Origin: Acidimicrobiales bacterium | Lineage (GTDB): Bacteria > Actinomycetota > Acidimicrobiia > Acidimicrobiales > Bin134 | Length of the DNA stretch: 64,000 nucleotides | Direction of reading: 5' to 3' | Assembly: GCA_965208805.1 (NCBI GenBank) | Contig: OZ242355.1 | Location: 2,760,982 to 2,824,981, forward strand | Shown: one piece after another, positions 5,039-61,891 of the stretch | How positions within the stretch are numbered: the first letter of the stretch is position 1 | How the letters are laid out: each line of letters opens with the position of its first letter | Made by a program: the position numbers and the translations under genes | The notes under the pieces: model-generated | Databases searched by the model: none | What the model saw: the letters and a program-made list of their open reading frames with translations, nothing else | What the model was told of the DNA's origin: nothing

Positions 5039-5746
5039 ATGAGAGCCGCCGAGTTCTTCGCCGGTATGGGCCTGATGAGAGCAGGTCTAGAGCGGGTGGG
5101 AGTGACCACGGTGTTCGCGAACGACATCGACACAACCAAGGCCGCTCTCTACCGTGCCAATTGGGGCGACGATGTGCTGGTGGTAGAGGACATCCGCAAC
5201 CTTCATGGCGACGACATTCCAGATGCCGAGATTGCCACGGCCTCATTCCCGTGCGTGGACATGTCGCTGGCGGGCAACCTTGCGGGTCTCGACGGCGAAC
5301 AGTCTGGTTTGATCACCGAGTTCTGCCGCATTCTCATAGAAATGGGTGAACGGCGTCCCAGGGCTGTGATTGTCGAGAACGTGCCGGGTTTCGCCACAGT
5401 CAACGGCGGCTGAGATTTTGCGCAAGTCGTCGAGATGCTGGAATCACTCGGCTATGCGGTGAATTCCATCGTCGTCAATGCGTCGGCATTCGTGCCGCAG
5501 AGCCGAGCCCGGGTGTTCTTGCTGGGAGCGCTTGGTGAACAGCCACAGGCCCTGGTGCGAGTGGGGCGCGACAGGTTCGATGTGCGTTGGATGGATGTAA
5601 ACGAATACGCCCGCCTTCAAGGAGCCGAAACCTTGAACTATGACTCCGTGTCGGAGCGGCAAGCCATGTTCGCGCTGGGAGATGCGGTGTGCGTGCCGGT
5701 CATCGAGTGGCTTGGCCAAAACTGGCTGATGACGCTCGCAGCTTGA
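5039..5746 (+). pseudogene. DNA (cytosine-5)-methyltransferase, disrupted by an in-frame TGA and lacking a target-recognition domain
   Basis: ORFs 5039..5413 and 5435..5746 share one frame and are separated only by the TGA at 5411-5413. Motif I FAGMG, motif IV FPCVDMS (PC), motif VI VIVENVPGF, motif VIII QSRARVFLLG and motif X-like GDAVCVPV are all present. Only about 25 residues lie between motifs VIII and IX, where a TRD of 100+ aa is expected. Confidence 0.8.
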
Positions 5747-6309
5747 CCTCAAATTCGCCACCCGAAGTTGGCGCTCTCCACGACGGAGTAACTCGCCTGC
5801 TCGACGCCCTCGACCCATCGGGCCGCAAGGTGGGAGATTGCACCTGCGGCGTGTACCTGTTTACTGACTACGACGGCGAGCCGATCTACGTGGGGCAAAC
5901 CAAAGAGAAGCTTCGCACCCGAATCCGCCGCCACCTGACAAATCAGCGAACTGATGCCGTGGCCATGCGGGTGCTTGACCCGTTCGAGGTCGCGGAGATC
6001 GAGATGTGGCCATTCTGGGACTTGGCGCACAAGGATGTGGGCGACACGCTCGATCGGGCCGAGTACACCGTTTACCGGCGGGCCCTCTCCGACTCGAAAT
6101 TCAATGCCGTGCTCAACGAGGTGGAGATCACCGAGACAGAGCTGGTCGACCTACCTGAAGGCGTGTCCGGATACGGCGGGATCATCGGGTCGATCAGCTG
6201 CGACGCCTTCGGCGACTGCGGCGTGCGGCGAATTGCCGTGGTCGAACATCTCGATTCCGGCGACCCAGCTGCCACTCGGTCCAACACTGTCTACGAGTAC
6301 AATCCGTAG
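5743..6309 (+). CDS. GIY-YIG nuclease domain protein with a foreign C-terminal tail (possible former restriction endonuclease; chimeric)
   Basis: Frame of ORF 5689..6309. A TTG at 5743 overlaps the methyltransferase stop (TTGA). The GIY-YIG pattern is GVYLFTDYDGEPIYVGQTKEKLRTRIRRH ... E ... N. The last 45 or so residues (GGIIGSISCDAFGDCGVRRIAVVEH...TVYEYNP) resemble the C-terminus of Leu/Ile/Val-type periplasmic binding proteins. The start codon is uncertain. Confidence 0.55.
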   Translation: MTSNSPPEVGALHDGVTRLLDALDPSGRKVGDCTCGVYLFTDYDGEPIYVGQTKEKLRTRIRRHLTNQRTDAVAMRVLDPFEVAEIEMWPFWDLAHKDVGDTLDRAEYTVYRRALSDSKFNAVLNEVEITETELVDLPEGVSGYGGIIGSISCDAFGDCGVRRIAVVEHLDSGDPAATRSNTVYEYNP

Positions 6310-6496
6310 CCAGACGCCGATGAGGCCACTCGAACGACCCTTCAACTGACCAGCGACGACGCATCCGCACGCGAGAAAATCCGTCGGAATTGTTGCCACC
6401 TTTCCATCAGCCATGTGGCAACCATCAGCGCCCGCAGACCGGTACCTGCGCGGGACCTGGTCGTGCCATTCGAAGACATCGCTCGCAAGTGGGTCA

Positions 6497-6915
6497 ATGC
6501 TGTTGTTCCGCCGCAAGTATCCACGGTGGTGGTTCGACTGGAACCTCGAAGTCACAAGATTCTCGACCCGGGTGGGGGCATACACCGTGCTCTTGCGAGA
6601 TGAGTACCCCTCTACCGACGAGGAGCAGGCAGTCCACCTCGATTTGGACTACCCCGACGCGCCACGCGACCTGAATCATTGGCTGCCGCTGGTCAAGTGG
6701 ATTCTCGCCATTCCCCACTACGTCGTTCTGGCCGTCCTGGGCATCGCAGCCAGGCTGTGCATTGTGATCGCGTGGTTCGCGATCATCATCACCGGCCGTT
6801 ACCCGCGTCGCCTTTTCGATTTCGTGGTCGGCGTAAACCGTTGGTCGCTGCGTGTCTCTGCCTATGCGTGGCTGCTCATAACTGACCGTTACCCCCCCTT
6901 TACGTTGTTGGGTGG
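6497..6915 (+). pseudogene. DUF4389-family membrane protein fragment (N-terminally truncated, no own stop codon)
   Basis: It lies within ORF 6413..7435. The sequence KYPRWWFDWNLEVTRFSTRVGAYTVLL..YPSTDE..LDLDYP...WLPLVKWILAIPHYVVL...AWFAIIITGRYPRRLFDFVVGVNRWSLRVSAYAWLLITDRYPPF matches the DUF4389 pattern from memory. The first repeat module is missing. Downstream translation is low-complexity until the DUF433 gene. Confidence 0.5.
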
Positions 6916-7180
6916 TCCTGGCCGTGACAGTGTTGGGGCTGGTTGCTCGCCGCCTGAGGCCGAGTCGGGGCCAGCGGACAAAAGAGCACCCGCCCCACAT
7001 GACCACCACCCCGCCTTACACAGAGCGTCCGAGTGTCATTGTTGGTGTTGCCGGGGCCTTCGGCCAGGGGATTTCGGTTCGGTTCCATACTCGGCGGTGC
7101 CTCCGCAAATGGGGTCTCGCGCCCCGCGGCGGCAGTGTCGGATAGCTAGCATTGCGAAAGAAGCGCAGGGAGGAGCAGCC

Positions 7181-7435
7181 ATGGCAGCGGCGGCTGAGTT
7201 GATGGACCGCATTACGGTGCGCCAGGACGTCTTCGGCGGCAAGCCGATCATCCGCGATCTACGGATGGCCGTCGAGCACGTCTTGGGCATGCTCGCGGCA
7301 GGCGAGTCGTCCGAGACGATTCTTCGCGAGCACCCCGTGTTGGAGCCTGAGGACATCCAGGCCTGTCTGCTCTACGCTCATCGCTGCATCGCCGGCGCTG
7401 ATGTGCATGAGCGGCTTCCCGTTGGCGGGGCGTGA
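7181..7435 (+). CDS. DUF433-domain protein (antitoxin-like partner of DUF5615)
   Basis: ATG at 7181 preceded by AGGAGC at 7171. The sequence ITVRQDVFGGKPIIRDLRMAVEHVLGMLAAGESSETILREHPVLEPEDIQACLLYA fits the DUF433 pattern. Its stop overlaps the next GTG start (GTGA). Confidence 0.8.
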   Translation: MAAAAELMDRITVRQDVFGGKPIIRDLRMAVEHVLGMLAAGESSETILREHPVLEPEDIQACLLYAHRCIAGADVHERLPVGGA

Positions 7436-8157: not shown

Positions 8158-8296
8158 CCTATCCCCCAATCTGTGGGGGATAGCCCGAATATGGCTGAGA
8201 ACAGCATACCATTATCCCATAACACAACACCGTTGATGAACTGGGGTTTTGTGGAAGAACTGGGACCAGACGACAACAATAGAGAACTCGTGGAAG

Positions 8297-8371
8297 CGCC
8301 CCCGGCAGGATTCGAACCTGCGGCCTGATGATTAGAAGTCACCTGCTCTGTCCGGACTGAGCTACAGGGGC
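8297..8371 (-). tRNA. tRNA-Arg (anticodon TCT)
   Basis: Cloverleaf folded by hand. Acceptor GCCCCUG/CGGGGGC (one G-U), D arm GCUC-AGUCCGGACA-GAGC, anticodon stem GGUGA/UCAUC with loop CU-UCU-AA, T arm GCAGG-UUCGAAU-CCUGC, discriminator G. CCA is not encoded. Confidence 0.9.
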
Positions 8372-8493
8372 GTGTTGGTGAGTACACCAGTCACGTCGAG
8401 TGTATTGCCTACTCAAGTCCGGCCCGTACCAGGTTTGCGGTGACCAGTAGTGACGACAACGGGCGGACACGTCTGCGGCAGTAGCGTCGGGTT

Positions 8494-8871
8494 ATGGCTG
8501 AAATGACCACTGCCAACGGGATTGCCTATGTGCGCACTCCGGAAGAGCGGTTTGCCGGGATCGACGATTATCCGTACGAGCCGCGCTATGTCGACATTAA
8601 CGGCCTGCGGATGGCCTATGTGATGGCGGAACCGGAGGGGGCGGCCGACGACGCGGCCACGATCTTGCTATTGCACGGCGAGCCGACCTGGGGCTACCTG
8701 TACCGCGAGATGATTCCGCCGTTGGTGGAGGGTGGTTACCGCGTGCTGGTTCCCCACCGGATCCCCGGTGCTGCGGGCCAACCCCATGCCCAGTTCCGAC
8801 CGGCCAGCCACTGCATCCAAGAAGACCAGGGTCCCGCGCTGGCCGAGGCCATCATCGCCTGGCTGGATTGA
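8494..8871 (+). pseudogene. Haloalkane dehalogenase-type alpha/beta hydrolase remnant with large internal deletion
   Basis: 125-aa ORF. The N-terminal 83 or so residues (RTPEERFAGIDDYPYEPRYVDINGLRMAYV...LLLHGEPTWGYLYREMIPPLVEGGYRVLVP) join directly to a C-terminal tail (ASHCIQEDQGPALAEAIIAWL, carrying the catalytic His region). The nucleophile elbow and cap domain, about 170 aa, are absent. Confidence 0.65.
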
Positions 8872-8939
8872 GCATGCGCCGGAGCCGGTGCCAAACGGTT
8901 TCCCCGTCTCCGGCTGCTGCCCATAGAATGACCAGGCTT

Positions 8940-9018
8940 GCGGGCCGTAGCTCAGTCAGGTTAGAGCGCCGGGTTGTGGTCCCGGAGGTCGGGGGTTCAA
9001 ATCCCCTCGGTCCGCCCA
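8940..9018 (+). tRNA. tRNA-His (anticodon GTG) with encoded G-1 and CCA
   Basis: Folded by hand. Acceptor CGGGCCG/CGGUCCG, extra G at 8940 opposite discriminator C (9015), D arm GCUC-AGUCAGGUUA-GAGC, anticodon stem CCGGG/CCCGG with loop UU-GUG-GU, T arm GGGGG-UUCAAAU-CCCCU. CCA lies at 9016-9018. Confidence 0.9.
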
Positions 9019-9022
9019 ACAA

Positions 9023-9096
9023 GCCCCTCTAGCTCAATTTGGCAGAGCAACGGACTCTTAATCCGCAGGTTCTGGGTTCAAGTCCCAGGGGGGGTA
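9023..9096 (+). tRNA. tRNA-Lys (anticodon CTT)
   Basis: Folded by hand. Acceptor GCCCCUC/GGGGGGU (G1-U72 and U6-G67 wobbles), D arm GCUC-AAUUUGGCA-GAGC, anticodon loop CU-CUU-AA, T arm CUGGG-UUCAAGU-CCCAG, discriminator A. No CCA is encoded. Confidence 0.85.
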
Positions 9097-9115
9097 CAAC
9101 TCAGGCCATGCCTTC

Positions 9116-23686: not shown

Positions 23687-23839
23687 GTTGTACTACTGCA
23701 TTCCCCTCCAGTGGTTGGGGGGCCTCCACTGGCGCTCTCTGAGATAGTTTCCCTTCCTCTTAGTGCGCCCACTTAGGGCCTGTTGACAAATTGATCAAAC
23801 AATTGACAATAAGTGGCGTGCTGGAGTGCTTGCGGGTGC

Positions 23840-24241
23840 TTAGTGACGGCGCAGCCTTCTTCCGTGATCGATGTGCATTCTGCGGCGGCGATCCTCCCGA
23901 TAGGGACGGGTCTGCTCCATTACGAGGGGGACCACTGGCGCGAGCAATATGGCGAGGCCGGATATTTCCATCGCCGGGTTATTGGAATACAGGCCGACCA
24001 GATACAGCGGTATGGCACCGGCCCCGATCACCACCCTTACTGGACGCGTCCACAGCCGTTGTACTCTGGCCAGCACCGTGGGTTTGTAGTTGGGTGCCCA
24101 GCGCCGCTTCGCGGTTACGGCGACCGCGATGGCGAGTGCTATGCCGATGGCCCCGGAGAGGATGATGGGATCGCTGGTAGCGAGCAGCAGGGCTGCGACG
24201 AGCACCCACGGCAGCGCCGCGGCAATTTTCCTGCGCTTCAT
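23840..24241 (-). CDS. Hypothetical membrane protein
   Basis: From the ATG at 24241: MKRRKIAAALPWVLVAALLLATSDPIILSGAIGIALAIAVAV... with 3-4 predicted hydrophobic helices. No family was recognised. Confidence 0.4.
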   Translation of the reverse strand: MKRRKIAAALPWVLVAALLLATSDPIILSGAIGIALAIAVAVTAKRRWAPNYKPTVLARVQRLWTRPVRVVIGAGAIPLYLVGLYSNNPAMEISGLAILLAPVVPLVMEQTRPYREDRRRRMHIDHGRRLRRH

Positions 24242-24271
24242 CGGGAGTTCAACCGATCGTTTCCACACGTG

Positions 24272-24436
24272 ACAATGTACCAGCCGGACAATCTTGTGCT
24301 TCTCTGCCACGACTGCCACCACAAGGTCCACCACCGCCGCTGGGAAGTTGAAAAACACCCCGAAACCCGACGCAACTATCTCCGACCACCCTGGCAACAA
24401 CCCCCAACAGTGCCAACACCCACCCTCAGGCTCTGA
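24272..24436 (+). pseudogene. HNH endonuclease 3' fragment
   Basis: The tail of ORF 23813..24436 reads PDNLVLLCHDCHHKVHHRRWEV..., the C-terminal half of an HNH motif. The upstream part of the ORF is antisense to the membrane gene and shows no HNH N-terminal half. Confidence 0.5.
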
Positions 24437-24488: not shown

Positions 24489-24797
24489 TCACGGGAGAAT
24501 CTCGTGACCGCCTATGTCGAGCCAGATGATGTGAGTGGCCCCTTCCAAGATCTGTTTGCCGTAGGCAAAGGTGGCCCGTCCGTCTGGGGCCCATGACATC
24601 TCCCAAACCCCTCGATTCCCCCGGACCTGCTTGACTCGCAAACCGGGACGGAACGGGGCTCTTGAGACCCTCCCGGCATCCCTGGCCTCTAAGTCCTCGA
24701 TGAACAGCCTCAGGGCAGCCAGAAATCGCTGCTGATCTTGCCTACTCAGTTGTTTGTAACCGCGTCGAAACGAGTCGGCCTTGTCAAAGGTGGGCAC
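24489..24797 (-). CDS. RelE/ParE-superfamily-like toxin (copy 2)
   Basis: 102 aa. LRVKQVRGNRGVWEMSWAPDGRATFAYG...HIIWLDIGGHEILP is colinear with 9116..9418 along the whole length. Confidence 0.6.
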   Translation of the reverse strand: MPTFDKADSFRRGYKQLSRQDQQRFLAALRLFIEDLEARDAGRVSRAPFRPGLRVKQVRGNRGVWEMSWAPDGRATFAYGKQILEGATHIIWLDIGGHEILP

Positions 24798-25187: not shown

Positions 25188-26864
25188 ATGGAGCACTTCA
25201 CACTGCGAGGGGGAACCGTTGTCGACGGCACCGGCGAGCCGGCGCAGCGGGCTGATGTGACGGTGGCCGACGGGCGTATCTCCGCGGTGGGCGACGTTCC
25301 CCGCAGCAGCGGCGGTACCGACGTGGATGTGTCCGGGCTGGTGGTGTCGCCAGGGTTTGTGGACATCCACACCCATTTCGACGCCCAGGTGTTCTGGGAT
25401 CCAGACCTCACCCCGTCGTCTTGGCACGGAGTCACCACCGTGGTGCAGGGGAACTGCGGGTTCGGGATCGCCCCCACCAGGCCGCATGACCGCGAGCTGG
25501 TTATGGAGACCCTGGAGTTGGTGGAGGGGATGCGGGTCGACACCCTGAGGTCGGGCATCGACTGGTGCTTCGAGACGTTTCCCCAGTATCTGGACGTGGT
25601 GCGGGCGCTGCCCAAACGGATCAACCTGGGGGCATTCGTGCCCCACTCCATGGTGCGGCTGTATGTGATGGGCGCCGACGCCGCCTTCTCCCGGACCGCC
25701 ACCGACGCCGAGCTGGCCGATATCCGTCACATCACCCGGGAGGCCATGGATGCCGGGGCGGTGGGCATCTCCACCTCCCAGGCGCCGTCGCATCAGGGGC
25801 CGCAGGGCCGACCGGTGCCCAGCCGGTTCGCCGATGTCCGTGAGGTGGCCGCCCTGGTGGAGACGCTGGCCGAGGTCGGTCGAGGCATCATCGAGATCAC
25901 CTACGGGCCGCTGATGGAGATCGAGGAAGTTGCGCAGCTCTCCAAACAGCACGGCGTGCCCATCACCTGGGGCGCAGTGCTTCCCGGCCTGTTCGGCCCG
26001 CCCGGGTCGGCCATGGACATGCTGGAGCGGGGCACCTCGGTGGGCGGCCAGCTGTGGCCCCAGACCAGCACCCGGTTCATCACCACCCAGATGAGCCTGG
26101 AAAACCCCTACCAGTGGAGCCGGGTGCCGGCATTCGCCGAGGTATTGGGCCGGGGGGCCGACGCCATGGCCGCGGCTTACGCCGACCCCTCTTGGCGAGA
26201 GCGGGCCTTGGCGCAGATGGAGTCCATCGCGGATCAAACCGACTTCCTCGACGGCGACATCCAGGGCTACTTCCGACGCACCTCGGTGGAGGAGACCGGC
26301 TGCCACTTCGATCTGCGGGGTGTTCCGCTGGCCGATGTGGCCGCGGCCCGGGGTGGCCATCCGCTGGAGGTGATGCTGGACTTGGCCCTCGAGGACGGCC
26401 TGGCCACCCGGTTCCGCAACCTGCCTCGCACCGACAAAGCCGAGATCACCGAGCTGGTCACCGATCCCCGTACCGTTCTCGGCGCCCACGACGCCGGGGC
26501 CCACGTCGACATGCTGTGCGACTCCTGCTATCCGAGCTACACCCTGCGCTATTGGGTACGCGAGGAGCAGGCCATGACCCTGGAGCAGGCGGTGTGGCGT
26601 ATGAGTGGCCAACCCGCTGCCCTGTGGGGGCTGGCCGACCGGGGCACGATCGAGGAGGGCAAAGCCGCCGACCTCGTGGCCTTCGACCCCGAAACCGTGG
26701 GCGAAACCCACCCCGAGCGGGCCTGGGACTTCCCCGCCGACGGCGATCGGTTGATCGCCCGCAGCGAGGGCATCGAGCACATCTGGGTGAACGGCACCCC
26801 CACCCGCCAAAACGGCACCGACCTCGAAGGCGCCACTCCAGGAATGGTGATCGACTCCCGCTAA
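25188..26864 (+). CDS. N-acyl-D-amino-acid deacylase (D-aminoacylase) family amidohydrolase
   Basis: 558 aa. GGTVVDGTG...VSPGFVDIHTHFD...WHGVTTVVQGNCG is the characteristic N-terminal metal-binding pattern of this amidohydrolase family. Confidence 0.85.
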   Translation: MEHFTLRGGTVVDGTGEPAQRADVTVADGRISAVGDVPRSSGGTDVDVSGLVVSPGFVDIHTHFDAQVFWDPDLTPSSWHGVTTVVQGNCGFGIAPTRPHDRELVMETLELVEGMRVDTLRSGIDWCFETFPQYLDVVRALPKRINLGAFVPHSMVRLYVMGADAAFSRTATDAELADIRHITREAMDAGAVGISTSQAPSHQGPQGRPVPSRFADVREVAALVETLAEVGRGIIEITYGPLMEIEEVAQLSKQHGVPITWGAVLPGLFGPPGSAMDMLERGTSVGGQLWPQTSTRFITTQMSLENPYQWSRVPAFAEVLGRGADAMAAAYADPSWRERALAQMESIADQTDFLDGDIQGYFRRTSVEETGCHFDLRGVPLADVAAARGGHPLEVMLDLALEDGLATRFRNLPRTDKAEITELVTDPRTVLGAHDAGAHVDMLCDSCYPSYTLRYWVREEQAMTLEQAVWRMSGQPAALWGLADRGTIEEGKAADLVAFDPETVGETHPERAWDFPADGDRLIARSEGIEHIWVNGTPTRQNGTDLEGATPGMVIDSR

Positions 26865-27883
26865 GAGACGCCGCCTTCGGCGAGCAGGGCGGCGAGGCTG
26901 CGGCGCCATTCGACTGAGGGACGGTCGGATTGGACGCTGACGGTGGCACCGACGTCCATGGGCAGCACGCCCTCAAGCTTCTCCAGCATGGCTTTGTCTT
27001 CGGCGCCGATGGCCAGGTCGAACTGCATGATCTCGTCGGCGGGCACCGAGAAGTCGTCGTTGCGCCACACCACGAAGTTGAACAGCGAGTTCACGTCGTC
27101 CATCGGAGTGGTCAACAGCAACAAGATGTGCTCCAGACCGGAGTCGTAGGCGATGGTGCTGCGCACCGAGAACGGCAGCACATAGCCGGTGGTCATCCGG
27201 CGGTGCAGCACGTCGTCGTCTTGGCCGGTAGTGGTCTGGCCTGCATCGGATGTGTTGTTGGCGTTCACTTCGTACACGTAGCCCCGATAGCCGTCGGGCA
27301 GGTCACCCATCTCCAAGGGCGGTATCACCGTCTCCTGGGCCAGCCCGAAGGTGGCGGTGTGGACGAAGGGGAAATGGGAAAAGTCCATGAAGTTGTCGGT
27401 GATCCGGGTGGATGAAACCGCCCACTGCTGGAACGGCGTATTGAGCCGGCGGAACTCGGGGTTGTCCTCTTGGGGGATTTCGGGGATCCGGCCCAGGGGC
27501 TTGCCCGGACACAGCCACACCAGGCCATAGCGCTCCTCGATGTCAACAGTGTTCAAGTGGGCCTTGGGCGGCACCGGGGTGCCGGGGGGCGAAGACGGCA
27601 CCAACTGGCACCGGCCCCCGGCTCCGAACCGCCATCCGTGATAGGGGCATTCCATGCAGCCGTCCACCATGCGTCCCTCCGACAGAGGGGCCTCTCGGTG
27701 GGGGCAGCGGTCGGGGGCCGCGGTGAGCGATCCGTCGTCGGAGCGCCACAGCACATAGCGGCGTCCCAGCACCTGAATCCCGACTGGGCCCGGAGCGATG
27801 TCTTCGCTGAGGGCAATGGGGTACCACTGGTGGTCCAGCGCGGGCTGGCCGACGAGCTGATTGGAAGCGCCGTTCCCACTCAT
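26861..27883 (-). CDS. Rieske [2Fe-2S] non-heme iron oxygenase, alpha-subunit type (demethylase/hydroxylase-like)
   Basis: 340 aa. It has the Rieske motif CPHREAPLSEG...CPYHGWRF and a C-terminal mononuclear-iron domain region with FMDFSHFPFVH. Confidence 0.85.
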   Translation of the reverse strand: MSGNGASNQLVGQPALDHQWYPIALSEDIAPGPVGIQVLGRRYVLWRSDDGSLTAAPDRCPHREAPLSEGRMVDGCMECPYHGWRFGAGGRCQLVPSSPPGTPVPPKAHLNTVDIEERYGLVWLCPGKPLGRIPEIPQEDNPEFRRLNTPFQQWAVSSTRITDNFMDFSHFPFVHTATFGLAQETVIPPLEMGDLPDGYRGYVYEVNANNTSDAGQTTTGQDDDVLHRRMTTGYVLPFSVRSTIAYDSGLEHILLLLTTPMDDVNSLFNFVVWRNDDFSVPADEIMQFDLAIGAEDKAMLEKLEGVLPMDVGATVSVQSDRPSVEWRRSLAALLAEGGVS

Positions 27884-28005
27884 GGGCCGATGATATCCCG
27901 TTGGATTCCCCCGAAAAGGGGGAAGCTCATGTCCTTATGTGGTTGCTGCGCGTCTCGCCCTATAGAAGAATCATGAGCGATTTTGAAGGCCCGGAGAGCT
28001 ACTAA

Positions 28006-30723
28006 ATGGACAAATCCGAACCACACGTGATCACCGAAGCGCTGGAACGGCCTTCAGGCGCTCACTTCGTGCGGTGCGCACTTCAGGTGAACCCCCACCA
28101 CTATCTCGAGAACTACCGGAACTCGCCCCACGACGGCGATGCCCAGAGCCATGCGTCAAGTCTCGTGGAGAAGGCGCGCGAACTCGGAATTGGCGTGCTT
28201 GCGATCACCGACCACAACAGCGTTCAAGACGTGGAGACGTTCCGCGAGGCAGCAGAAGGTTCAGGAGTGACCGTGCTGCCCGGCTTCGAATTGGAGTCGA
28301 CCGACGGAATTCATGTCCTGTGCATCTATGACTCGGACACCACCACGGACCAACTCAATCGGCTCCTGGGCGAATTCGGCATCCGCGAGCCCGAGCCTTC
28401 ACGAGACAATTGCAGCCACGACTTCGCCGCGATTTTGGAGAAGGTCTCCAGCCAGGGTGGGATCGCTATAGCGGCACACGCTTTTGGGGAAAAGGGGCTC
28501 TTCAAGGCCCTCCGAAAGAGTGCTCGAGCGCTGGCATGGAGGAACGAGAACTTGTTGGCGATACAGATTCCCTCGTCGATTGACGAGCTCAACGAGGGGG
28601 AGCGCTCGATCATCAGGAACGATGAGCCGGAGTATGCCCGCCCGTATAAGGCCGGTCAGCGTCAGGCCATTGCCGTGGTCAATGCAAAAGATGTCGCCAT
28701 CGTGAGTGACCTAGGCGATCAGGGAGCGACCACCCTGATCAAGTTTGCCGGCCAGCCCAGCGTCGAAGGGTTACGACAGGCCTTTCTCGATCCTGATTCG
28801 CGTGTCCGCCTAAACACTGATGAGGAACTTGAAGAGCATTCGGAGCTGGCGGCCATTGCGTGGGAGGGCGGTGGCTTTCTTGATGGCGGTGCGATTCACT
28901 TTAATCCTAATCTGAACGTGCTCGTCGGCGGCCGTGGCACAGGCAAATCGACCGTGATCGAGAGCATTCGGTACGCCTTGGACCTGGAACCAGCTGGTGA
29001 CGAAGCTCGCAATGCACACCGCGACATCGTCCGCCATGTGCTTCGTAGCGGTACCAAGGTGTCGCTGCTGGTGCGTTCGCTGCATCCCGCCGAACGCCGG
29101 TATCGCATCGAGCGTACTGTTCCGAATCCTCCGGTGGTTCGCAATGACGAAGGTGAGATATTGAACCTGCGGCCGATTGACGTGCTGCCTCGGGTCGAGG
29201 TGTTCGGCCAGCACGAGATTTCTGAGCTCACCCGCAGCGGTTCCAAACTCACCATGCTCCTTGACCGCTTTGTGCGCTCCGATACCGACCTGGAAGCTCG
29301 AAAGGTGAGCATTCAGCGCGGACTGCAAGCCTCTCGGGCAGCAATTCTCGAAGCTGACGATGAACTCGCCTCGATCGACGAGCGCCTTGCTGAATTGCCC
29401 CGGCTTGAAGAAACCTTGGAGCGGTTTCAAGAAGCTGGTCTCGAGGACCGTCTCAAAGACCAGAGCTTGCTGGTTCGCGAGTCTCAGATAGTCGACTCCA
29501 TTTCAGAACGCCTTCAGCCGGTACACGAGATTCTGGCGGGACTGCGCCAAGAACTCCCTATAGACCAAGCCTTCCTATCACCGCGCTCACTAGCCGAACT
29601 GCCCGGAGCACCGATCCTGGACAAGGCGAACTCGGTTCTGAAAGAGCTGAACGACGCACTTGAATCGGCGGCGAAGCAGATCGAGAGCGCCCTGGAGCAG
29701 GCCAAGCAAGGAATCGACACAATCACCGCGGAGTGGTCGGAGCACAAGTCGGCGATAGATGAGCAGTACGAGGCGATTCTTCGCGAGCTGCAAAAGTCAG
29801 CCGTAGACGGGGAGGAATTCATCCGCTTGCGGCGAAACATCGAGAACCTGCGGCCTCTCAAAGAGCGGCGAGGCACGCTTGAGGAGCTGCGCAGCGGGGA
29901 AATGCAGCGACGACGCGATCTGCTTGATGAGTGGGAAGGGGTCAAGGCCGCCCAGTTCCGTGAGCTTGATCGCGCGGCGAAGCGAGTGAGCAAGCGGCTC
30001 AAGGGCTTTGTCCGGGTTGATGTCACCGCCGCCGGAGATCGGACACCGTTGACGCGCTTGCTGAGAGATGAGATCGGTGGCCGGCTAGATGTCGCAATCC
30101 GGCAGCTTGAAGCAGCCGAGGACCTGTCCCTCACCGATCTGGCGGCTCGCTGTCGCGCGGGGGCAGCAGAACTGTCGAAACACTTCGACATCACTCGGCA
30201 ACAAGCTGAAAGCATCGCCGGAGCGGGAGAAAGCACGCTCATGAAGATTGAGGAACTGGAGTTACCGCCAACCACTGAGTTGCTCCTGAACACGTCGGGC
30301 AGCGCGACAGAGGAGTCGTGGCAGTCGCTCCGTAAATTGTCGAAGGGCCAGAAAGCCACCGCCGTACTGCTGCTATTGCTGCTTGAATCCGATGCACCGC
30401 TAATTGTCGACCAACCGGAGGACGACCTCGACAACCGCTTCATCAGCGAGGTCATCGTCGAAAAAATGCGAGAGAACAAGAGGCAGCGACAATTTGTCTT
30501 CTCGACGCACAACGCGAACATTCCCGTGCTCGGAGACGCTGAGCTCATATTGGGCCTCGACGCCCAGGGTGATGTCGACGACGGGGATTTTGAAGGACGG
30601 GCATTTATCAGCCCTGAGCACATGGGATCAATTGACACGCCCGCAGTTCGGGCTCTGGTAGAAGAAATCCTCGAAGGCGGCAAAGAAGCGTTCGAGCGCC
30701 GTCGCCGCAAGTACGGCTTCTGA
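28006..30723 (+). CDS. PHP-domain phosphoesterase fused to an ABC/SMC-like ATPase with coiled-coil insert (PplA/TrlF-like architecture, from memory)
   Basis: 905 aa. PHP motifs: HFVRCALQVNPHHY, LAITDHNS, GIHVLCIY, IAAHAF. ATPase motifs: Walker A GGRGTGKST (about 28924-28953), a long Glu/Leu/Arg-rich coiled-coil region, signature-like LSKGQK, Walker B LIVDQPEDDLD (about 30401-30432) and the H-loop FVFSTHNANI. GC is clearly lower than in the flanks. Confidence 0.85.
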   Translation: MDKSEPHVITEALERPSGAHFVRCALQVNPHHYLENYRNSPHDGDAQSHASSLVEKARELGIGVLAITDHNSVQDVETFREAAEGSGVTVLPGFELESTDGIHVLCIYDSDTTTDQLNRLLGEFGIREPEPSRDNCSHDFAAILEKVSSQGGIAIAAHAFGEKGLFKALRKSARALAWRNENLLAIQIPSSIDELNEGERSIIRNDEPEYARPYKAGQRQAIAVVNAKDVAIVSDLGDQGATTLIKFAGQPSVEGLRQAFLDPDSRVRLNTDEELEEHSELAAIAWEGGGFLDGGAIHFNPNLNVLVGGRGTGKSTVIESIRYALDLEPAGDEARNAHRDIVRHVLRSGTKVSLLVRSLHPAERRYRIERTVPNPPVVRNDEGEILNLRPIDVLPRVEVFGQHEISELTRSGSKLTMLLDRFVRSDTDLEARKVSIQRGLQASRAAILEADDELASIDERLAELPRLEETLERFQEAGLEDRLKDQSLLVRESQIVDSISERLQPVHEILAGLRQELPIDQAFLSPRSLAELPGAPILDKANSVLKELNDALESAAKQIESALEQAKQGIDTITAEWSEHKSAIDEQYEAILRELQKSAVDGEEFIRLRRNIENLRPLKERRGTLEELRSGEMQRRRDLLDEWEGVKAAQFRELDRAAKRVSKRLKGFVRVDVTAAGDRTPLTRLLRDEIGGRLDVAIRQLEAAEDLSLTDLAARCRAGAAELSKHFDITRQQAESIAGAGESTLMKIEELELPPTTELLLNTSGSATEESWQSLRKLSKGQKATAVLLLLLLESDAPLIVDQPEDDLDNRFISEVIVEKMRENKRQRQFVFSTHNANIPVLGDAELILGLDAQGDVDDGDFEGRAFISPEHMGSIDTPAVRALVEEILEGGKEAFERRRRKYGF

Positions 30724-30732
30724 AGTCAACCT

Positions 30733-31953
30733 ATGAATCAGACCGATTTGCTCCGACTGATTGCCGGTGGCGAGAACTCGCGCGTGGAATTCAAGCGGGA
30801 CGACTTGAAGCCGGTCAAGATCGCCGAGGTGATCGCCGGACTGCTGAATCTCCAAGGCGGTCAGGTGCTGCTCGGTGTCGAGGACGACGGCGAAATTTCG
30901 GGGCTAACGCGTTCGAGTGGGAAGGCCGAGGAGTGGATCATGCAGATCGCTCGCGATCATCTGATGCCCTCCATTATCCCTACCTGGGAGGTCACCGATC
31001 TCGAAGGCGGCACCATGGTCGGAATTGTGACTGTGCCGGCCAATGCACCTGACAAGCCTTACAAGTGCAAACAAGGAGCGCACTGGGTTACCAAGGTCCG
31101 GGTCGGCACCACGACGCTCGACGCCACTCGTGAGGAGGAGCAGAGGCTGTACCAACAGTCGGGGGGTCTCCGCTACGGCCTCAAACCGGTGCCAGGTGCT
31201 GGCGTAGCGGACCTTGATGCACGACGCCTAAAGGACTACTTCGTCCGCATCCGCGGCGATGCGGAGATGCCTAGCCCCGGCTCGGAGCAGTGGAGCCGGC
31301 AGCTCTGCAACCTCGAACTTGCCACCGAGACAGATGGCGAAATCTACGCCACCGTCGATGGGATGCTCCTATTCGGCCAGAACACTGGGCGATTCCTTCC
31401 ACAGTGTGGAATTCGGGCTGTGTGCTTCGCGGGCAATGAGCCGGGCTATGCCACGAAGTCCGATGAGAGCATCAAGGGCCCTCTAGTGGGCTTGTTCTCA
31501 ATTGGCGGCGATTTGGTCGAGACAGGAGTCGTGGAGAGGGCTCTCGATTTCATCCGTCGCAATACGGGCACATCCGCGACGCTGGAGGACGGTCGCCGTG
31601 TGGAACGCCGTGAATTCCCCGAGGTGGCCGTCCGCGAGGTAGTGGTCAATGCCCTCGTACACCGCGACTACAGCATCGCTGGGGCAGACGTGCTGCTATC
31701 AGTCTTCAATGATCGAATTGAAGTACAAAGTCCTGGAAGCTTGCCGAACACCATAAGCATCGAAGGCATCCGCGCCGGGGTCCGCTATGCGCGCAATCAA
31801 GTGATGATGAGCATCATGCGTGACTATGGATACGTTGAGGGGCTGGGCATGGGCATCCGCCGGCAGGTCATTCCCGCCATGGCGCAACACAACGGCACGG
31901 AACCGGACTTCCTCGAAGAAGAATTTCGCTTTTCCGTTTGTCTGCGGAAGTAG
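30733..31953 (+). CDS. Schlafen/AlbA_2 (divergent AAA) domain + HATPase_c_4 domain protein
   Basis: 406 aa, starting 9 nt after the upstream stop. N-terminal AlbA_2 pattern: LIAGGENSRVEFKRD...LLNLQGGQVLLGVEDDGEISG. C-terminal HATPase_c_4 pattern: REVVVNALVHRDYSIAGADVLLSVFNDRIEVQSPGSLP...ARNQVMMSIMRDYGYVEGLGMGIRR. Confidence 0.8.
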   Translation: MNQTDLLRLIAGGENSRVEFKRDDLKPVKIAEVIAGLLNLQGGQVLLGVEDDGEISGLTRSSGKAEEWIMQIARDHLMPSIIPTWEVTDLEGGTMVGIVTVPANAPDKPYKCKQGAHWVTKVRVGTTTLDATREEEQRLYQQSGGLRYGLKPVPGAGVADLDARRLKDYFVRIRGDAEMPSPGSEQWSRQLCNLELATETDGEIYATVDGMLLFGQNTGRFLPQCGIRAVCFAGNEPGYATKSDESIKGPLVGLFSIGGDLVETGVVERALDFIRRNTGTSATLEDGRRVERREFPEVAVREVVVNALVHRDYSIAGADVLLSVFNDRIEVQSPGSLPNTISIEGIRAGVRYARNQVMMSIMRDYGYVEGLGMGIRRQVIPAMAQHNGTEPDFLEEEFRFSVCLRK

Positions 31954-31991
31954 GAGCGAAACCGGACACTGCGCCGGTAACGTCAACTGAC

Positions 31992-60201: not shown

Positions 60202-61087
60202 GTGAGCAACCCGCCCACCCGGTTGGCCCGACGGCTGGGCACTGGGGATGCGATCGTGATCGGACTGGGGTCGATGATCGGGGCCAACGTGTTCGCTGCC
60301 ATCGGGCCGGCGGCGGCCGCAGCCGGATCGGGCCTGATGATCGGATTGGCGGTAGCCGGAGTGGTGGCGTTCCGCAACGCCACATCCTCAGCGCAGTTGG
60401 CCGCCCTCTACCCCGCCTCCGGGGGCACCTACGTATATGGGCGCAAGCGGCTGGGCCACCTCGCCGGGTTCTGCGCCGGATGGGGGTTCGTGGTCGGCAA
60501 GTCGGCCACGCTGTCCGTCTCGGCGCTCGCTTTCGGGGCCGACCGCCGTGTGGGCGGTCGGCCCCGAAGTGCTGGCAAACGCGGCCGCACCATTGGCCGC
60601 GGCCACCGACGCCGGGGCTTGGAACGGCCTCACCCCGGTAGTGCGAGTGGGCGCGGCCATCGCCTCGGCCGGGGCGGTGATGGTCCTCATCGCCGGGGTG
60701 GGGCGAACCACATTTGCCATGGCCTCAGAAGGCGACTTGCCCCGATCGCTGGACAAGGTCCATCCGACATTCAAGGTGCCCCACTACGCCGAGGTCGCGG
60801 TGGCCGCAGTGGTGATCGTGCTAGTGGCGCTGACCGACCTGCGCAACGTGCTTGGCTTCAGCTCGTTCTGCGTGCTGTTCTACTACGCCGTGACCAATGC
60901 CGCCGCGTGGACCCTGTCAGCCACCCAGCGCCGCTGGCCGCGGGGGCTGAGCGGCATCGGCTTCATCGGCTGCGTCACCCTGGCCGTGACTCTGCCCGGG
61001 GCCTCCGTGATCGGCGGGTTCTGCGTGCTCGCCTCGGGGATAGTCGTCTGGCGCATTCGCCATGCCTTGAACCCGGCACCCTCATAA
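60202..61087 (+). pseudogene. APC-family amino acid permease remnant (frameshift plus internal deletion)
   Basis: ORF 60202.. gives an APC N-terminus (GTGDAIVIGLGSMIGANVF...YPASGGTYVYGRKRLG...GWGFVVGK). From about 60540 the family sequence continues in the frame of ORF 60437..61087 (GRTTFAMASEGDLPRSLDKVHPTFKVPHYAE...). The total of about 295 codons compares with the 440+ expected. Confidence 0.65.
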
Positions 61088-61126
61088 CCCCTTGACCAAA
61101 ATACGGGACTCGGTCGGTCTTCTTCC

Positions 61127-61627: not shown

Positions 61628-61891
61628 CAGCAGACAATAGCGCCACGGATCGCCGAAGAAACGGCCTTGATAGAAGTTGCGGAAATTGCTTCATAGGCAT
61701 TTGCGTTGCGTATGCTTACCACTCATATTCAGGAATCAGCAAACTCGCGGAGGACGACCTGAAAAAGGAAAGTACATCAACTTTATCAAAAGACGTGTCC
61801 GGTCAACTTTGGGGGCTCAAGACCATAGTTACCCCTCGATGGTTCAGCCCTCAGACGATAGGAAGACCCAACTCAGAATTCGAAGTACAGT

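What the first reader, a model, noticed from the sequence alone, without database searches (positions are those of the whole stretch)
27884..31991. Lower-GC two-gene cassette: PHP-nuclease + ABC/SMC-like ATPase fusion coupled to a Schlafen/AlbA_2-HATPase_c_4 protein (candidate defence system)
A 4-kb block is wedged between a Rieske oxygenase gene and an amidohydrolase gene of the catabolic core.

Composition:
- Hand counts give 32/60 GC (29401-29460) and 34/60 (30481-30540) inside the block.
- The core gene nearby gives 39/60 (26401-26460).

Gene 1 (905 aa):
- An N-terminal PHP phosphoesterase domain with its His/Asp motifs is fused to an ABC-type ATPase.
- The ATPase is split by a long coiled coil and carries Walker A GGRGTGKST, LSKGQK, Walker B LIVDQPEDDLD and an H-loop THN.
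- This is an SMC/RecN/OLD-like sensor-motor wired to a metal-dependent nuclease/phosphatase. From memory it resembles the single-gene 'Ppl' (PHP + ATPase) defence candidate and proteins annotated as TrlF-family ATPases.

Gene 2:
- It starts 9 nt later and combines a Schlafen-type AlbA_2 domain with HATPase_c_4. That architecture recurs in defence islands but is experimentally uncharacterised.

I am not aware of this pairing being described as a system.

A perfect hairpin, TTCCCCC-gaaaa-GGGGGAA (27906-27924), sits in the AT-richer 5' flank. No integrase or flanking direct repeats are visible.
Basis: partly seen in the sequence, partly recalled or inferred. Interest (0 to 1): 0.8.

Follow-up and report, generated by a model that had tools for sequence, protein, structure and literature searches.

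The report
TrlF ATPase–Schlafen nuclease defence gene pair
A horizontally acquired two-gene cassette pairs an SMC-like ATPase carrying a PHP phosphoesterase domain with a Schlafen-type RNase; the same pair recurs across bacteria and an archaeon, often inside restriction-modification operons, so it is very probably an uncharacterised two-component anti-phage/anti-plasmid module.

Summary
Two co-directional genes (28006-30723, 905 aa; 30733-31953, 406 aa; 9-nt gap) form the lowest-GC 4.1-kb stretch of the window.

Gene 1 passes NCBI's curated model for the TrlF family, a PHP + SMC/Rad50-like ABC ATPase. It is a sister of the validated anti-phage protein Ppl but not a member of that family. Gene 2 is a "Schlatpase": a Schlafen nuclease with an intact Ex4ExK motif joined to a GHKL ATPase.

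The pairing is not accidental:
- In 80 species-representative genomes from many phyla, 64 of 78 assessable TrlF genes have this partner directly downstream.
- On plasmids, about 42-49 of 49 full-length partner homologues abut a TrlF gene.
- The two proteins co-diverge (r = 0.84).
- A natural single-chain fusion exists.

No other neighbour is conserved. The main recurrent theme is restriction: the pair is often nested inside type I RM or DUF1156/DUF499 BREX-related operons, including on IncC resistance plasmids.

Best reading: a two-component defence module in which an SMC-like DNA sensor/nuclease works with an ATP-gated tRNase. I found no paper describing the pair. One key paper (Krishnan 2020) could not be read. 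No experiment exists.

The parts
27884..28005 (.). Divergent intergenic region between the Rieske gene (-) and gene 1 (+), GC 0.53. The last ~70 nt (about 27940-28005, including the GGAGAG ribosome-binding site) are conserved with relatives and probably form the cassette's own promoter/leader.
   Evidence: the upstream ~70 nt are conserved in L001 and L006 and, in a different genomic context, in L007. No sigma-70-type consensus promoter was found.
27906..27924 (.). Perfect 7-bp stem / 5-nt loop hairpin, 22 nt from the Rieske start codon. No T-tract on either strand. Probably belongs to the Rieske side and not to the cassette.
   Evidence: exact in the window, imperfect without compensatory changes in L001 and L006, absent in L007. 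Not called as a terminator.
28006..30723 (+). Gene 1: TrlF-family protein (905 aa), an N-terminal PHP phosphoesterase fused to an SMC/Rad50/RecN-like ABC ATPase.
   Evidence: NCBIfam NF045780 523 bits against cut-off 350. Pfam. AlphaFold2 model pLDDT 87.7. Foldseek top hits are SMC, MukB, JetC, RecN and Rad50 heads.
28057..28815 (+). PHP domain (aa ~18-270). Conserved residues are Q27, N29, D69, H70, E95, H103, H158, N226 and D229. Motif I is Q-x-N where the canonical motif is H-x-H.
   Evidence: Two of 60 family members have H-x-H at these columns, which confirms the alignment.
28843..29280 (+). ABC ATPase head, N-terminal half (aa ~280-425): Walker A G308-S315 and Q-loop Q402.
   Evidence: 60/60 conserved.
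29284..29997 (+). Long helical coiled-coil insertion (aa ~427-664). No cysteine zinc hook at the apex (aa 517-534).
   Evidence: Secondary structure of the model and sequence.
30010..30285 (+). Small helical domain (aa ~669-760) between the coiled coil and the signature motif. Role unknown; it could bind DNA or the partner protein.
   Evidence: helices 680-750. Not tested further.
30286..30723 (+). ABC ATPase head, C-terminal half (aa ~761-905): signature S779-x-G781-Q782, Walker B D802-Q-x-E805, D-loop D809, H-loop H835.
   Evidence: 59-60/60 conserved.
30733..31953 (+). Gene 2: 'Schlatpase' (406 aa), a Schlafen/AlbA_2 nuclease domain plus a GHKL (histidine-kinase-like) ATPase, with no extra C-terminal HTH. 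It starts 9 nt after gene 1's stop and has no ribosome-binding site of its own, which suggests translational coupling.
   Evidence: Pfam. Foldseek hits are 3lmm and histidine-kinase catalytic domains. PADLOC hit to the SLFN-GHKL part of pAgo. Sequence.
30772..31077 (+). Schlafen (AlbA_2) nuclease domain (aa 14-115) with catalytic motif E14-x4-E19-x-K21.
   Evidence: E14, E19 and K21 are conserved in 59, 57 and 59 of 60 diverse partners. The motif is defined in 10.1101/2025.07.24.666596.
31180..31950 (+). GHKL ATPase region (aa ~150-406; Pfam HATPase_c_4 at aa 317-404). N-box E302/N306 and G-box G372-x-G374.
   Evidence: E302 and N306 60/60. These residues are equivalent to E314/N318 of RzAgo, which coordinate the ATP gamma-phosphate and Mg.

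Best explanation
The block is a horizontally acquired two-gene defence module against phages or other invading DNA, and the two proteins work together.

Gene 1 (TrlF) is a homologue of the anti-phage protein Ppl. It has an SMC/Rad50-like ABC ATPase head split by a coiled coil, which most likely dimerises on ATP and engages DNA ends or abnormal DNA. Fused in cis is a PHP metal-dependent phosphoesterase, and in Ppl that domain is a 3'-5' exonuclease.

Gene 2 is a Schlafen RNase whose GHKL ATPase domain, by analogy with the SLFN-GHKL module of SLFN-pAgo, drives ATP-dependent oligomerisation. That oligomerisation assembles the active tRNA-cleaving site.

Proposed sequence of events:
1. TrlF senses invading or damaged DNA, or the failure of an adjacent restriction system.
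2. This releases or licenses the Schlafen tRNase.
3. Translation shuts down (abortive infection) while the PHP domain degrades DNA ends.

Shown here: the domain identities, conservation of catalytic residues, tight operon structure, reciprocal co-occurrence, co-divergence, a natural fusion, mobility, and nesting in restriction operons. Inferred: any defence phenotype, physical interaction, the substrate of either nuclease, and which protein is sensor and which is effector.
For: **Family identity**
- TrlF model 523 bits against cut-off 350. Homology to Ppl (179 bits; PADLOC Ppl 1.4e-35) and to LmuB (4.5e-12).
- Fold matches SMC, MukB, JetC, RecN and Rad50 heads.
- Gene 2 has AlbA_2 + HATPase_c_4 and a GHKL fold.

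**Catalytic residues** of all four enzymatic modules are conserved over 60 diverse pairs.

**The pair is the conserved unit**
- 5/5 metagenomic loci at 59-90% identity, in four different contexts.
- 64 of 78 assessable species-representative loci, with the partner directly downstream and a typical gap of 3-12 nt.
- Apart from gene 2 (62 of 80 loci by clustering), no other neighbour recurs in more than 8 of 80 loci.
- Reciprocally, about 42-49 of 49 full-length gene 2 homologues on plasmids abut a TrlF/PHP-ATPase gene.
- Pairwise identities of the two proteins correlate: r = 0.84, Mantel 0/999.
- A single-chain TrlF-Schlatpase fusion occurs in two assemblies, with split versions in the same 90% cluster.

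**Defence context**
- The pair is nested inside type I RM operons (L072, L077, Citrobacter pCFR-0b27, IncC pNDM102337) and DUF1156/DUF499/SNF2-NOV_C operons (L005, L011, L016, L019, L034, L053), or sits next to PglZ/BrxL.

**Mobility**
- 208 plasmids, 144 of them conjugative.
- Disruption by an IS607-family element in L007.
- Aberrant GC and GC3 in the window.

**Mechanistic precedents from the literature**
- Ppl is an NTP-inhibited, end-sensing 3'-5' exonuclease (PMC12904381).
- In RzAgo, the SLFN-GHKL module needs ATP-driven tetramerisation to cleave tRNA and cause abortive infection (10.64898/2026.05.29.728809).
- Prokaryotic Schlafens defend by tRNA cleavage, and Slfn-HisKinase is the commonest architecture (10.1101/2025.07.24.666596).
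- Schlafen-HisK(-wHTH) genes are linked to BREX and BREX-related loci in at least 1017 taxa (PMC12839542).
Against: - No experiment exists on any TrlF or on any stand-alone Schlatpase of this clade.
- In the window itself no restriction or other recognised defence gene flanks the cassette; the neighbours are catabolic genes. Most of the 80 loci likewise have ordinary metabolic neighbours.
- TrlF occurs without the partner in 14 of 78 loci and on many plasmids, so it can presumably act alone. The partner may be an accessory.
- The PHP domain lacks canonical motif I (Q-x-N for H-x-H), so its nuclease activity is uncertain.
- The Schlafen domain model is of low confidence (pLDDT below 50).
- Co-divergence reflects co-inheritance and does not prove interaction.
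- The fusion could be a tolerated or inactivating read-through mutation.
- PADLOC v2 has no model that recognises the pair as a system.
Confidence: 0.7

Rival explanations
1. These are two independent single-gene defence systems that merely sit side by side: a Ppl-like nuclease-ATPase and a stand-alone Schlafen tRNase. Defence genes often cluster this way. On this reading there is no functional coupling.
For: Ppl works as a single gene (PMC12904381). Some single-gene Schlafens defend on their own. TrlF is solo in 14/78 loci and on plasmids such as the Xanthomonas and Staphylococcus ones. Schlatpases occur in many other contexts.
Against: The order, strand and very short, often overlapping spacing are fixed across phyla in 64/78 loci. 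The association is reciprocal on plasmids. The two genes are inserted together between hsdS and hsdR or between DUF1156 and DUF499. They co-diverge, r = 0.84. A natural fusion exists. Gene 2 has no visible ribosome-binding site of its own.
Confidence: 0.15
2. This is a housekeeping or stress DNA-repair module. On this reading it is an SbcCD/Mre11-Rad50-like end-processing machine in which PHP replaces the Mre11 nuclease, and the second gene is a DNA/RNA-binding regulator.
For: The fold resembles Rad50, RecN and SMC. PGAP attaches the GO term 'double-strand break repair'. Some sources name homologues 'DNA repair ATPase RecN'. L003 and L004 share a chromosomal context.
Against: The distribution is patchy and the contexts highly variable. 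The genes are carried on 208 plasmids and next to Tn7-like transposition genes. They are nested in restriction operons. GC3 is foreign in the window. The gene is disrupted by an IS in a close relative. The nearest characterised homologue is an anti-phage protein. The partner carries an intact Schlafen RNase motif.
Confidence: 0.05
3. This is a guard for restriction systems, in the manner of PrrC or PARIS. On this reading the pair's primary role is to detect phage anti-restriction proteins or the failure of an associated type I RM or BREX-related complex and then trigger tRNA cleavage. The stand-alone copy in this window would be a remnant, or would act with a restriction system encoded elsewhere in the genome.
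For: The pair occupies the same intra-operon position as prrC in hsd loci: HsdM-HsdS-[pair]-HsdR in L072, L077 and pCFR-0b27; HsdR-[pair]-HsdS-AAA-HsdM in pNDM102337; inside DUF1156/DUF499 operons. The combination of an ABC-type ATPase with a tRNase effector parallels PARIS and PrrC (PMC12839542; established knowledge of EcoprrI/PrrC). In L001 the neighbouring variable spot holds two DNA methyltransferases.
Against: Only about 13-20 of 80 loci show a restriction system within two genes of the pair. The window has none nearby. The pair is standalone on pPsv48B. TrlF has its own nuclease-type domain, which a pure guard would not need.
Confidence: 0.1

Closest known systems
Ppl (Gao_Ppl), single-gene anti-phage PHP + ATPase protein of E. 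coli
   Same: Homologous over the PHP domain, the ATPase N-lobe and part of the coiled coil (NCBIfam Ppl 1.1e-52; PADLOC Ppl 1.4e-35). Same overall architecture and similar length.
   Different: The score is far below the Ppl equivalog cut-off (179 against 1000). This protein belongs to the sister family TrlF. Ppl acts alone, whereas about 82% of TrlF genes sampled carry a Schlatpase partner. Whether Ppl shares the Q-x-N motif I variant was not tested.
TrlF family AAA-like ATPase (NCBIfam NF045780)
   Same: Full-length match above the curated cut-off (523 against 350; aa 18-904 on model positions 2-944). RefSeq uses this name for homologues on plasmids.
   Different: It is a name without a described function. 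I found no paper on TrlF. The NCBIfam model covers only gene 1, and the partner has no NCBIfam model.
Schlatpase / pSlfn-HisKinase (prokaryotic Schlafen + GHKL ATPase), as in SLFN-pAgo RzAgo
   Same: Same two Pfam domains in the same order. The Ex4(E/D)xK nuclease motif and the GHKL E/N box are conserved. PADLOC aligns gene 2 residues 29-360 to the N-terminal part of a pAgo model.
   Different: No Argonaute, NACHT or other sensor is fused. Here the candidate sensor is a separate upstream protein (TrlF). Stand-alone Schlatpases of this kind have no published activity or trigger.
PARIS (AriA ABC ATPase + AriB Toprim tRNase) and PrrC/RloC anticodon nucleases
   Same: The logic is shared: an ABC-type ATPase coupled to a tRNA-cleaving effector, often associated with or embedded in type I restriction loci, acting as an abortive backup (for the embedding).
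   Different: The ATPase class differs (SMC/Rad50-like with a long coiled coil, not OLD-type). The effector differs (Schlafen, not Toprim or the PrrC nuclease). There is an additional PHP domain. AriA matches only the C-terminal signature region.
Lamassu (LmuB SMC-like ATPase + LmuA effector + LmuC) and Wadjet (JetC)
   Same: An SMC-like ATPase with a coiled coil serves as the DNA sensor that controls a nuclease effector. LmuB models match across the whole ATPase (aa 297-838, 4.5e-12). JetC is among the top structural hits.
   Different: There is no LmuA, LmuC or kleisin-like gene. A PHP domain is fused to the ATPase. The partner is a Schlafen-GHKL protein.
SbcCD / Mre11-Rad50
   Same: A Rad50-like ATPase is combined with a metal-dependent phosphoesterase nuclease.
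   Different: The nuclease is PHP, not calcineurin-like, and it is fused in cis. The coiled coil is much shorter and has no zinc hook. The gene is mobile and patchily distributed, not a core gene.

Membership tests
TrlF family AAA-like ATPase (NCBIfam NF045780, equivalog) | Whole-protein score above the curated cut-off (350 bits) with end-to-end coverage of the model | tested here: met
   523.4 bits; residues 18-904 on model positions 2-944 of 944.
TrlF family AAA-like ATPase (NCBIfam NF045780, equivalog) | Architecture: N-terminal PHP domain + ABC ATPase split by a coiled coil, with intact Walker A/B, signature, D-loop and H-loop | tested here: met
   Pfam; model; motif conservation 59-60/60.
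Ppl anti-phage protein (NCBIfam NF042955, equivalog) | Score above the curated cut-off (1000 bits) | tested here: not met
   179.2 bits, partial coverage over aa 72-640. It is homologous but not a member.
Ppl anti-phage protein (NCBIfam NF042955, equivalog) | NTP-inhibited 3'-5' ssDNA exonuclease activity and phage protection as a single gene | not testable with these tools
   Biochemical and phenotypic property, known only from the literature (PMC12904381).
Spaf_1101 family AAA-like ATPase (NCBIfam NF045781) | Score above the curated cut-off (475 bits) | tested here: not met
   176.5 bits.
Prokaryotic Schlafen with GHKL ATPase ('Schlatpase' / pSlfn-HisKinase) | SLFN_AlbA_2 (PF04326) followed by HATPase_c_4 (PF13749), both above Pfam gathering scores | tested here: met
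   51.6 bits (cut-off 25.3) and 67.8 bits (cut-off 26).
Prokaryotic Schlafen with GHKL ATPase ('Schlatpase' / pSlfn-HisKinase) | Catalytic E-x4-(E/D)-x-K nuclease motif | tested here: met
   E14-NSRV-E19-F-K21, conserved in 57-59 of 60 partners.
Prokaryotic Schlafen with GHKL ATPase ('Schlatpase' / pSlfn-HisKinase) | GHKL ATP-binding residues (N-box Glu/Asn, Gly-rich box) and Bergerat fold | tested here: met
   E302 and N306 60/60; G372 and G374 58-59/60. Foldseek hits to histidine-kinase catalytic domains.
Prokaryotic Schlafen with GHKL ATPase ('Schlatpase' / pSlfn-HisKinase) | ATP-dependent oligomerisation and tRNA cleavage | not testable with these tools
   Shown only for RzAgo. The Schlafen domain model here has pLDDT below 50.
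Lamassu | LmuB SMC-like ATPase together with an LmuA effector (and usually LmuC) | tested here: not met
   LmuB-like match for the ATPase, but gene 2 matches no LmuA or LmuC model and no third gene is conserved.
PARIS | AriA (OLD-type ABC ATPase) + AriB (Toprim/DUF4435 nuclease) | tested here: not met
   AriA matches only aa 763-839. The fold is SMC/Rad50-like. There is no Toprim partner.
Type I RM-embedded anticodon-nuclease guard (PrrC-like arrangement) | Gene located inside an hsd operon | tested here: not met
   Not met in this window: the flanks are catabolic genes. It is met for homologous pairs elsewhere (L072, L077, pCFR-0b27, pNDM102337).

The most novel reading that the evidence does not exclude
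TrlF-Schlatpase is a distinct, very widespread but undescribed two-component immune system. On this reading an SMC-like, PHP-bearing DNA sensor supplies the missing trigger for the most abundant class of prokaryotic Schlafens. DNA-end or aberrant-DNA engagement by TrlF, or collapse of the restriction complex it is nested in, licenses ATP-driven oligomerisation of the Schlafen tRNase and abortive infection. It would be a Schlafen activation route parallel to DNA-damage-triggered SLFN11 in humans.
Probability: 0.35. Interest if true: 0.8.

Novelty: new variant of a known kind. Interest (0 to 1): 0.62.

Why it matters
Schlafen + GHKL proteins are the most common prokaryotic Schlafens: 58.6% of about 103,000 proteins, or 34% + 19% of architectures. 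What activates the stand-alone ones is unknown. This locus, and the survey built on it, identify a specific, obligate-looking partner for one large clade of them. That partner is an SMC-like ATPase with a PHP domain, related to the anti-phage protein Ppl.

The resulting sensor-effector hypothesis can be tested with existing cultivable material, because the same pair sits on IncC multidrug-resistance plasmids of E. coli and Klebsiella, on Pseudomonas syringae-group plasmids and on Yersinia ruckeri plasmids.

The pair is repeatedly inserted inside type I RM and BREX-related operons, at the position classically held by prrC. It may therefore be a general 'second line' behind restriction. On conjugative resistance plasmids it could influence phage susceptibility and plasmid competition.

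For the window's organism, probably a sponge-associated Acidimicrobiia, it simply marks a foreign defence cassette dropped into a catabolic gene cluster.

Tried and rejected
- **Literature on 'TrlF':** returned only spectroscopy (TRLFS) and unrelated hits. The origin of the name was not found.
- **Papers not held:** Krishnan et al. 2020 (NAR, ABC ATPase classification), cited elsewhere for Schlafen-linked ABC systems, and Makarova 2011. A prior computational mention of the pair therefore cannot be excluded.
- **Papers that mention no PHP/TrlF partner:** the BREX-diversity paper and its supplements, the bacterial Schlafen preprint and the SLFN-pAgo preprint.
- **Megablast** of the 8-kb region against plasmids: no match.
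- **Sequence search of the PDB:** only weak PHP/SMC fragments and 3lmm. No Ppl or TrlF structure.
- **Promoter/terminator scan:** nothing above shuffled expectation, and the hairpin is not a terminator.
- **Repeat search:** no credible target-site duplication or terminal inverted repeats around the block.
- **Solo versus paired TrlF:** I considered that paired and solo TrlFs might be separate subfamilies or differ by a docking domain. This is rejected: solos are scattered through the identity-based clustering and show no indel or domain difference.
- **Antisense ORF clusters:** I considered that conserved antisense ORF clusters (clusters 2-9) were real genes. This is rejected: they lie inside genes 1 and 2 on the opposite strand.
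- **Schlafen domain structure:** the model was too poor (pLDDT below 50) to examine the active site.
- **Complex prediction** was not possible with the tools.

Full report
**1. What is in the sequence**

Two co-directional ORFs occupy 28006-30723 (905 aa) and 30733-31953 (406 aa). They are separated by 9 nt (TGA-AGTCAACCT-ATG). They lie between a Rieske/VanA-like oxygenase gene on the minus strand (26861-27883) and an amidohydrolase gene on the plus strand.

The block (GC 0.589) is the lowest of 599 sliding 4.1-kb windows in a window of mean GC 0.649. Third-position GC is 0.67 and 0.70 in the two genes, against 0.82-0.88 in neighbouring genes.

The quoted ATPase motifs and the hairpin at 27906-27924 are all present as written. 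No integrase and no credible flanking repeats exist. The wider surroundings are catabolic: IclR regulator, ETF subunits, a DAO/GCV_T oxidase, amidohydrolases, glyoxalases and acyl-CoA dehydrogenases.

The closest relatives of both proteins come from sponge-associated Acidimicrobiia ('Candidatus Poriferisocius/Poriferisodalis'). The window very probably derives from such an organism.

**2. Gene 1**

Pfam finds PHP, AAA_23/SMC_N and AAA_21. NCBIfam places the protein end to end in the curated equivalog 'TrlF family AAA-like ATPase' (523 bits, cut-off 350). The models for the anti-phage protein Ppl (179 against 1000) and for Spaf_1101 (176 against 475) are matched but not passed. PADLOC's best hit is also Ppl (1.4e-35), followed by the Lamassu SMC-like ATPase LmuB across the whole ATPase.

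An AlphaFold2 model built on 36 diverse homologues is confident (pLDDT 87.7, pTM 0.73). It shows the following layout:
- a PHP barrel (aa ~18-270);
- an ABC head split by about 240 residues of long helices (aa ~427-664), with no cysteine zinc hook;
- a small helical domain (aa ~669-760);
- the C-terminal head half.

Foldseek against the PDB returns SMC, MukB, JetC, RecN and Rad50 heads. The ATPase is therefore of the SMC/Rad50 class, not the OLD class.

Across 60 diverse family members every ABC motif is essentially invariant: Walker A, Q-loop Q402, signature S779/G781, Walker B D802/E805, D-loop D809 and H-loop H835. The PHP residues D69, H70, E95, H103, H158, N226 and D229 are conserved as well. 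The canonical PHP motif I (H-x-H) is replaced by a conserved Q27-x-N29. Two members carry H-x-H at these columns, which validates the alignment. The PHP site is thus conserved but non-canonical, and its chemistry is uncertain.

**3. Gene 2**

Pfam finds SLFN_AlbA_2 (aa 14-115) and HATPase_c_4 (aa 317-404). No NCBIfam model matches. RefSeq calls homologues 'RNA-binding domain-containing protein'.

The Schlafen catalytic motif defined in recent work, E-x4-(E/D)-x-K, is present as E14-NSRV-E19-F-K21. It is conserved in 57-59 of 60 partners. The GHKL N-box (E302, N306) is 60/60 and the Gly box (G372, G374) 58-59/60.

The model is good for aa 150-406 and poor for the Schlafen domain. Foldseek finds the uncharacterised DIP2311 protein (3lmm), which has the same architecture, and then histidine-kinase catalytic domains.

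PADLOC aligns aa 29-360 with the N-terminal part of a pAgo model. That part is the SLFN+GHKL 'Schlatpase' supradomain described in a 2026 preprint. [quoted passage not shown]

**4. Is the pairing real?**

Yes, and this is the main result.

- *Metagenomic relatives.* Homologues of gene 1 at 90, 77, 60, 58 and 59% identity all have the 406-412 aa partner directly downstream. One is in the same context as the window, the others in three other contexts: gatCAB...MatE, His_Phos_1/DUF3090...UDG (twice), and a restriction-type operon.
- *Species genomes.* I built a diverse alignment (28-77% identity) from the exhaustive representative search, which found 1,468 clusters at E ≤ 1e-30. With it I scanned one genome per species. 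At least 591 genomes encode a relative, and the best 80 loci span Acidimicrobiia, Dehalococcoidia, Binatia, Latescibacterota, Acidobacteriota, many Proteobacteria, Actinomycetes, Chlamydiales and an ANME-1 archaeon.
- *Counts.* In 64 of these 80 loci a gene 2 homologue lies directly downstream on the same strand, usually 3-12 nt away or overlapping. That count includes one locus disrupted by an IS607-family transposase plus a TnpB-like gene, and two loci cut by contig ends. Two further loci have no room, and 14 lack the partner. That is 82% of the 78 assessable loci.
- *Other neighbours.* Clustering all neighbouring ORFs shows that nothing else recurs in more than 8 loci.
- *Solo TrlFs.* They are scattered among paired ones and have the same architecture, which indicates sporadic loss of the partner.
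- *Reciprocal test.* On complete plasmids, about 42-49 of the 49 full-length gene 2 homologues abut a TrlF or 'histidinol-phosphatase' ATPase gene.
- *Co-divergence.* Pairwise identities of the two proteins across 60 loci correlate (r = 0.84; 0 of 999 Mantel permutations reach it).
- *Natural fusion.* A 1,354-aa protein carries all four domains in one chain. Its C-terminal part is 44% identical to gene 2. It occurs in two independent assemblies, while members of the same 90% cluster encode the split 948 + 404 aa version.

**5. Context elsewhere**

The recurrent neighbours are mostly restriction-type genes (MatE, UDG and HTH_3 each also recur in 3 loci). The pair is nested as follows:
- HsdM-HsdS-[pair]-HsdR in L072, L077 and Citrobacter plasmid pCFR-0b27;
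- HsdR-[pair]-HsdS-AAA-HsdM next to Tn7-like transposition genes (TnsD-family) on the IncC plasmid pNDM102337;
- DUF1156-[pair]-DUF499, or SNF2/NOV_C helicase-[pair]-DUF1156, in L005, L011, L016, L019, L034 and L053. These are the 'type-1 BREX-related' systems of PMC12839542.
- Two further loci have PglZ and BrxL immediately downstream.

The intra-hsd position is the one classically held by prrC.

TrlF relatives occur on 208 plasmids, 144 of them conjugative, and on a few phage or satellite records. Many loci, including the window, have only ordinary metabolic neighbours.

In the window's nearest relative (L001) both flanks are shared (Rieske 93%, amidohydrolase 89%), so the cassette predates the split of these two genomes. 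In L006 the right junction differs. About 70 nt upstream of gene 1 are conserved with L001 and L006 and, in another context, with L007, so a promoter/leader appears to travel with the cassette. The hairpin is imperfect in L001 and L006 and absent in L007. It lies 22 nt from the Rieske start codon and is more likely part of that gene's leader.

**6. Mechanism**

*Shown here:*
- four conserved enzymatic modules;
- an operon with probable translational coupling;
- reciprocal co-occurrence, co-divergence and a natural fusion;
- mobility;
- association with restriction systems.

*From the literature:*
- Ppl is a single-gene 3'-5' ssDNA exonuclease, inhibited by NTPs bound to its PHP and NTPase domains and activated at 3'-OH ends (PMC12904381).
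- The SLFN-GHKL module needs ATP-driven oligomerisation to cleave tRNA.
- Prokaryotic Schlafens defend by tRNA cleavage, and the Slfn-HisKinase class is the commonest. Of seven Schlafen genes tested, the two that protected had other architectures.
- Schlafen-HisK(-wHTH) genes accompany BREX and BREX-related systems in at least 1017 taxa.

*Inference:* TrlF is the DNA-engaging sensor, and possibly a first nuclease. Its ATP/DNA state licenses the Schlatpase tRNase, giving abortive infection. In restriction-embedded copies this would act as a second line when restriction fails, as PrrC and PARIS do. The direction of control, the interaction and the substrates are not shown.

**7. Rivals**

- *Two independent neighbours.* Disfavoured by the fixed order and spacing, the reciprocity, the joint insertion into operons and the fusion. 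TrlF clearly can exist alone, however.
- *Housekeeping repair.* Disfavoured by the patchy, mobile distribution and the foreign composition.
- *Pure restriction guard.* Fits a minority of loci, but not this window or the standalone plasmid copies.

**8. Novelty**

Both proteins belong to known, named families. The logic of an ABC/SMC-type ATPase plus a nuclease effector is familiar from PARIS, PrrC, Lamassu and Wadjet. What I could not find described anywhere in the searchable literature is this specific pairing: TrlF as the partner of a large Schlatpase clade.

There is one caveat. Krishnan et al. 2020, which is cited for Schlafen-linked ABC systems, was not available. PADLOC v2 has no model for the pair.

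I therefore rate it a new variant of a known kind. Interest is moderate to high: it gives a concrete, testable trigger hypothesis for the most abundant class of prokaryotic Schlafens, and the same pair sits on clinically relevant IncC plasmids.

Noticed in passing
L007:12657-14896 (Ca. Poriferisocius sp. chromosome OZ244918.1): In the closest complete genome, an IS607-family transposase gene and a TnpB-like gene are inserted between TrlF and its partner. The partner is truncated to 262 aa, so the pair has been naturally inactivated.
   Followed up: partly
L091:2247-6311 and L092:2231-6295: A natural single-chain TrlF-Schlatpase fusion (1,354 aa) is followed by a HEPN_Swt1 gene. Members of the same 90% cluster encode split 948 + 404 aa versions. 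Across phyla the TrlF stop to partner ATG gap is most often 9 or 3 nt, i.e. in frame, so a single stop-codon change fuses the genes.
   Followed up: partly
window:22354-24797 compared with L001:2987-8604: The spot between the DAO/GCV_T gene and the Rieske gene is variable. The window has an ORF with an HNH-like 'HDCHHKVHH' motif (23813-24436), a 102-aa ORF (24489-24797, -) and a second amidohydrolase, none of the small ORFs having a family hit. L001 instead has a Dcm-type and a D12-type DNA methyltransferase plus three unknown genes, possibly a restriction-modification island one gene away from the cassette.
   Followed up: partly
window:4327-9097: A lower-GC patch (about 0.60) holds DUF5956, a GIY-YIG domain ORF (5689-6309) and a DUF433+DUF4389 protein (6413-7435). 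It sits next to tRNA-Arg(tct), tRNA-His(gtg) and tRNA-Lys(ctt) at 8296-9097, and may be a small integrated element at a tRNA cluster.
   Followed up: no
window:61100-62100: This is the sharpest GC dip of the window (0.51 for 61001-62000). It contains only small ORFs without Pfam hits, between a truncated-looking amino-acid permease ORF and an epimerase gene.
   Followed up: no
L089:1-14181 (E. coli IncC plasmid pNDM102337, NC_019045.2): Tn7-like transposition genes (TnsD-family) lie beside HsdR-TrlF-Schlatpase-HsdS-AAA ATPase-HsdM on a conjugative NDM resistance plasmid. Near-identical loci occur on many E. coli and Klebsiella plasmids.
   Followed up: partly
L002, L008, L009, L010 (about 90 nt upstream of TrlF): The Poriferisodalis-lineage copies share their own conserved upstream sequence (…GTCGTATCCTCGCGC…GGTGACCTTGAGGACACAAATG). 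It differs from the leader conserved in the window, L001, L006 and L007, so each sub-lineage carries a distinct conserved 5' region.
   Followed up: no
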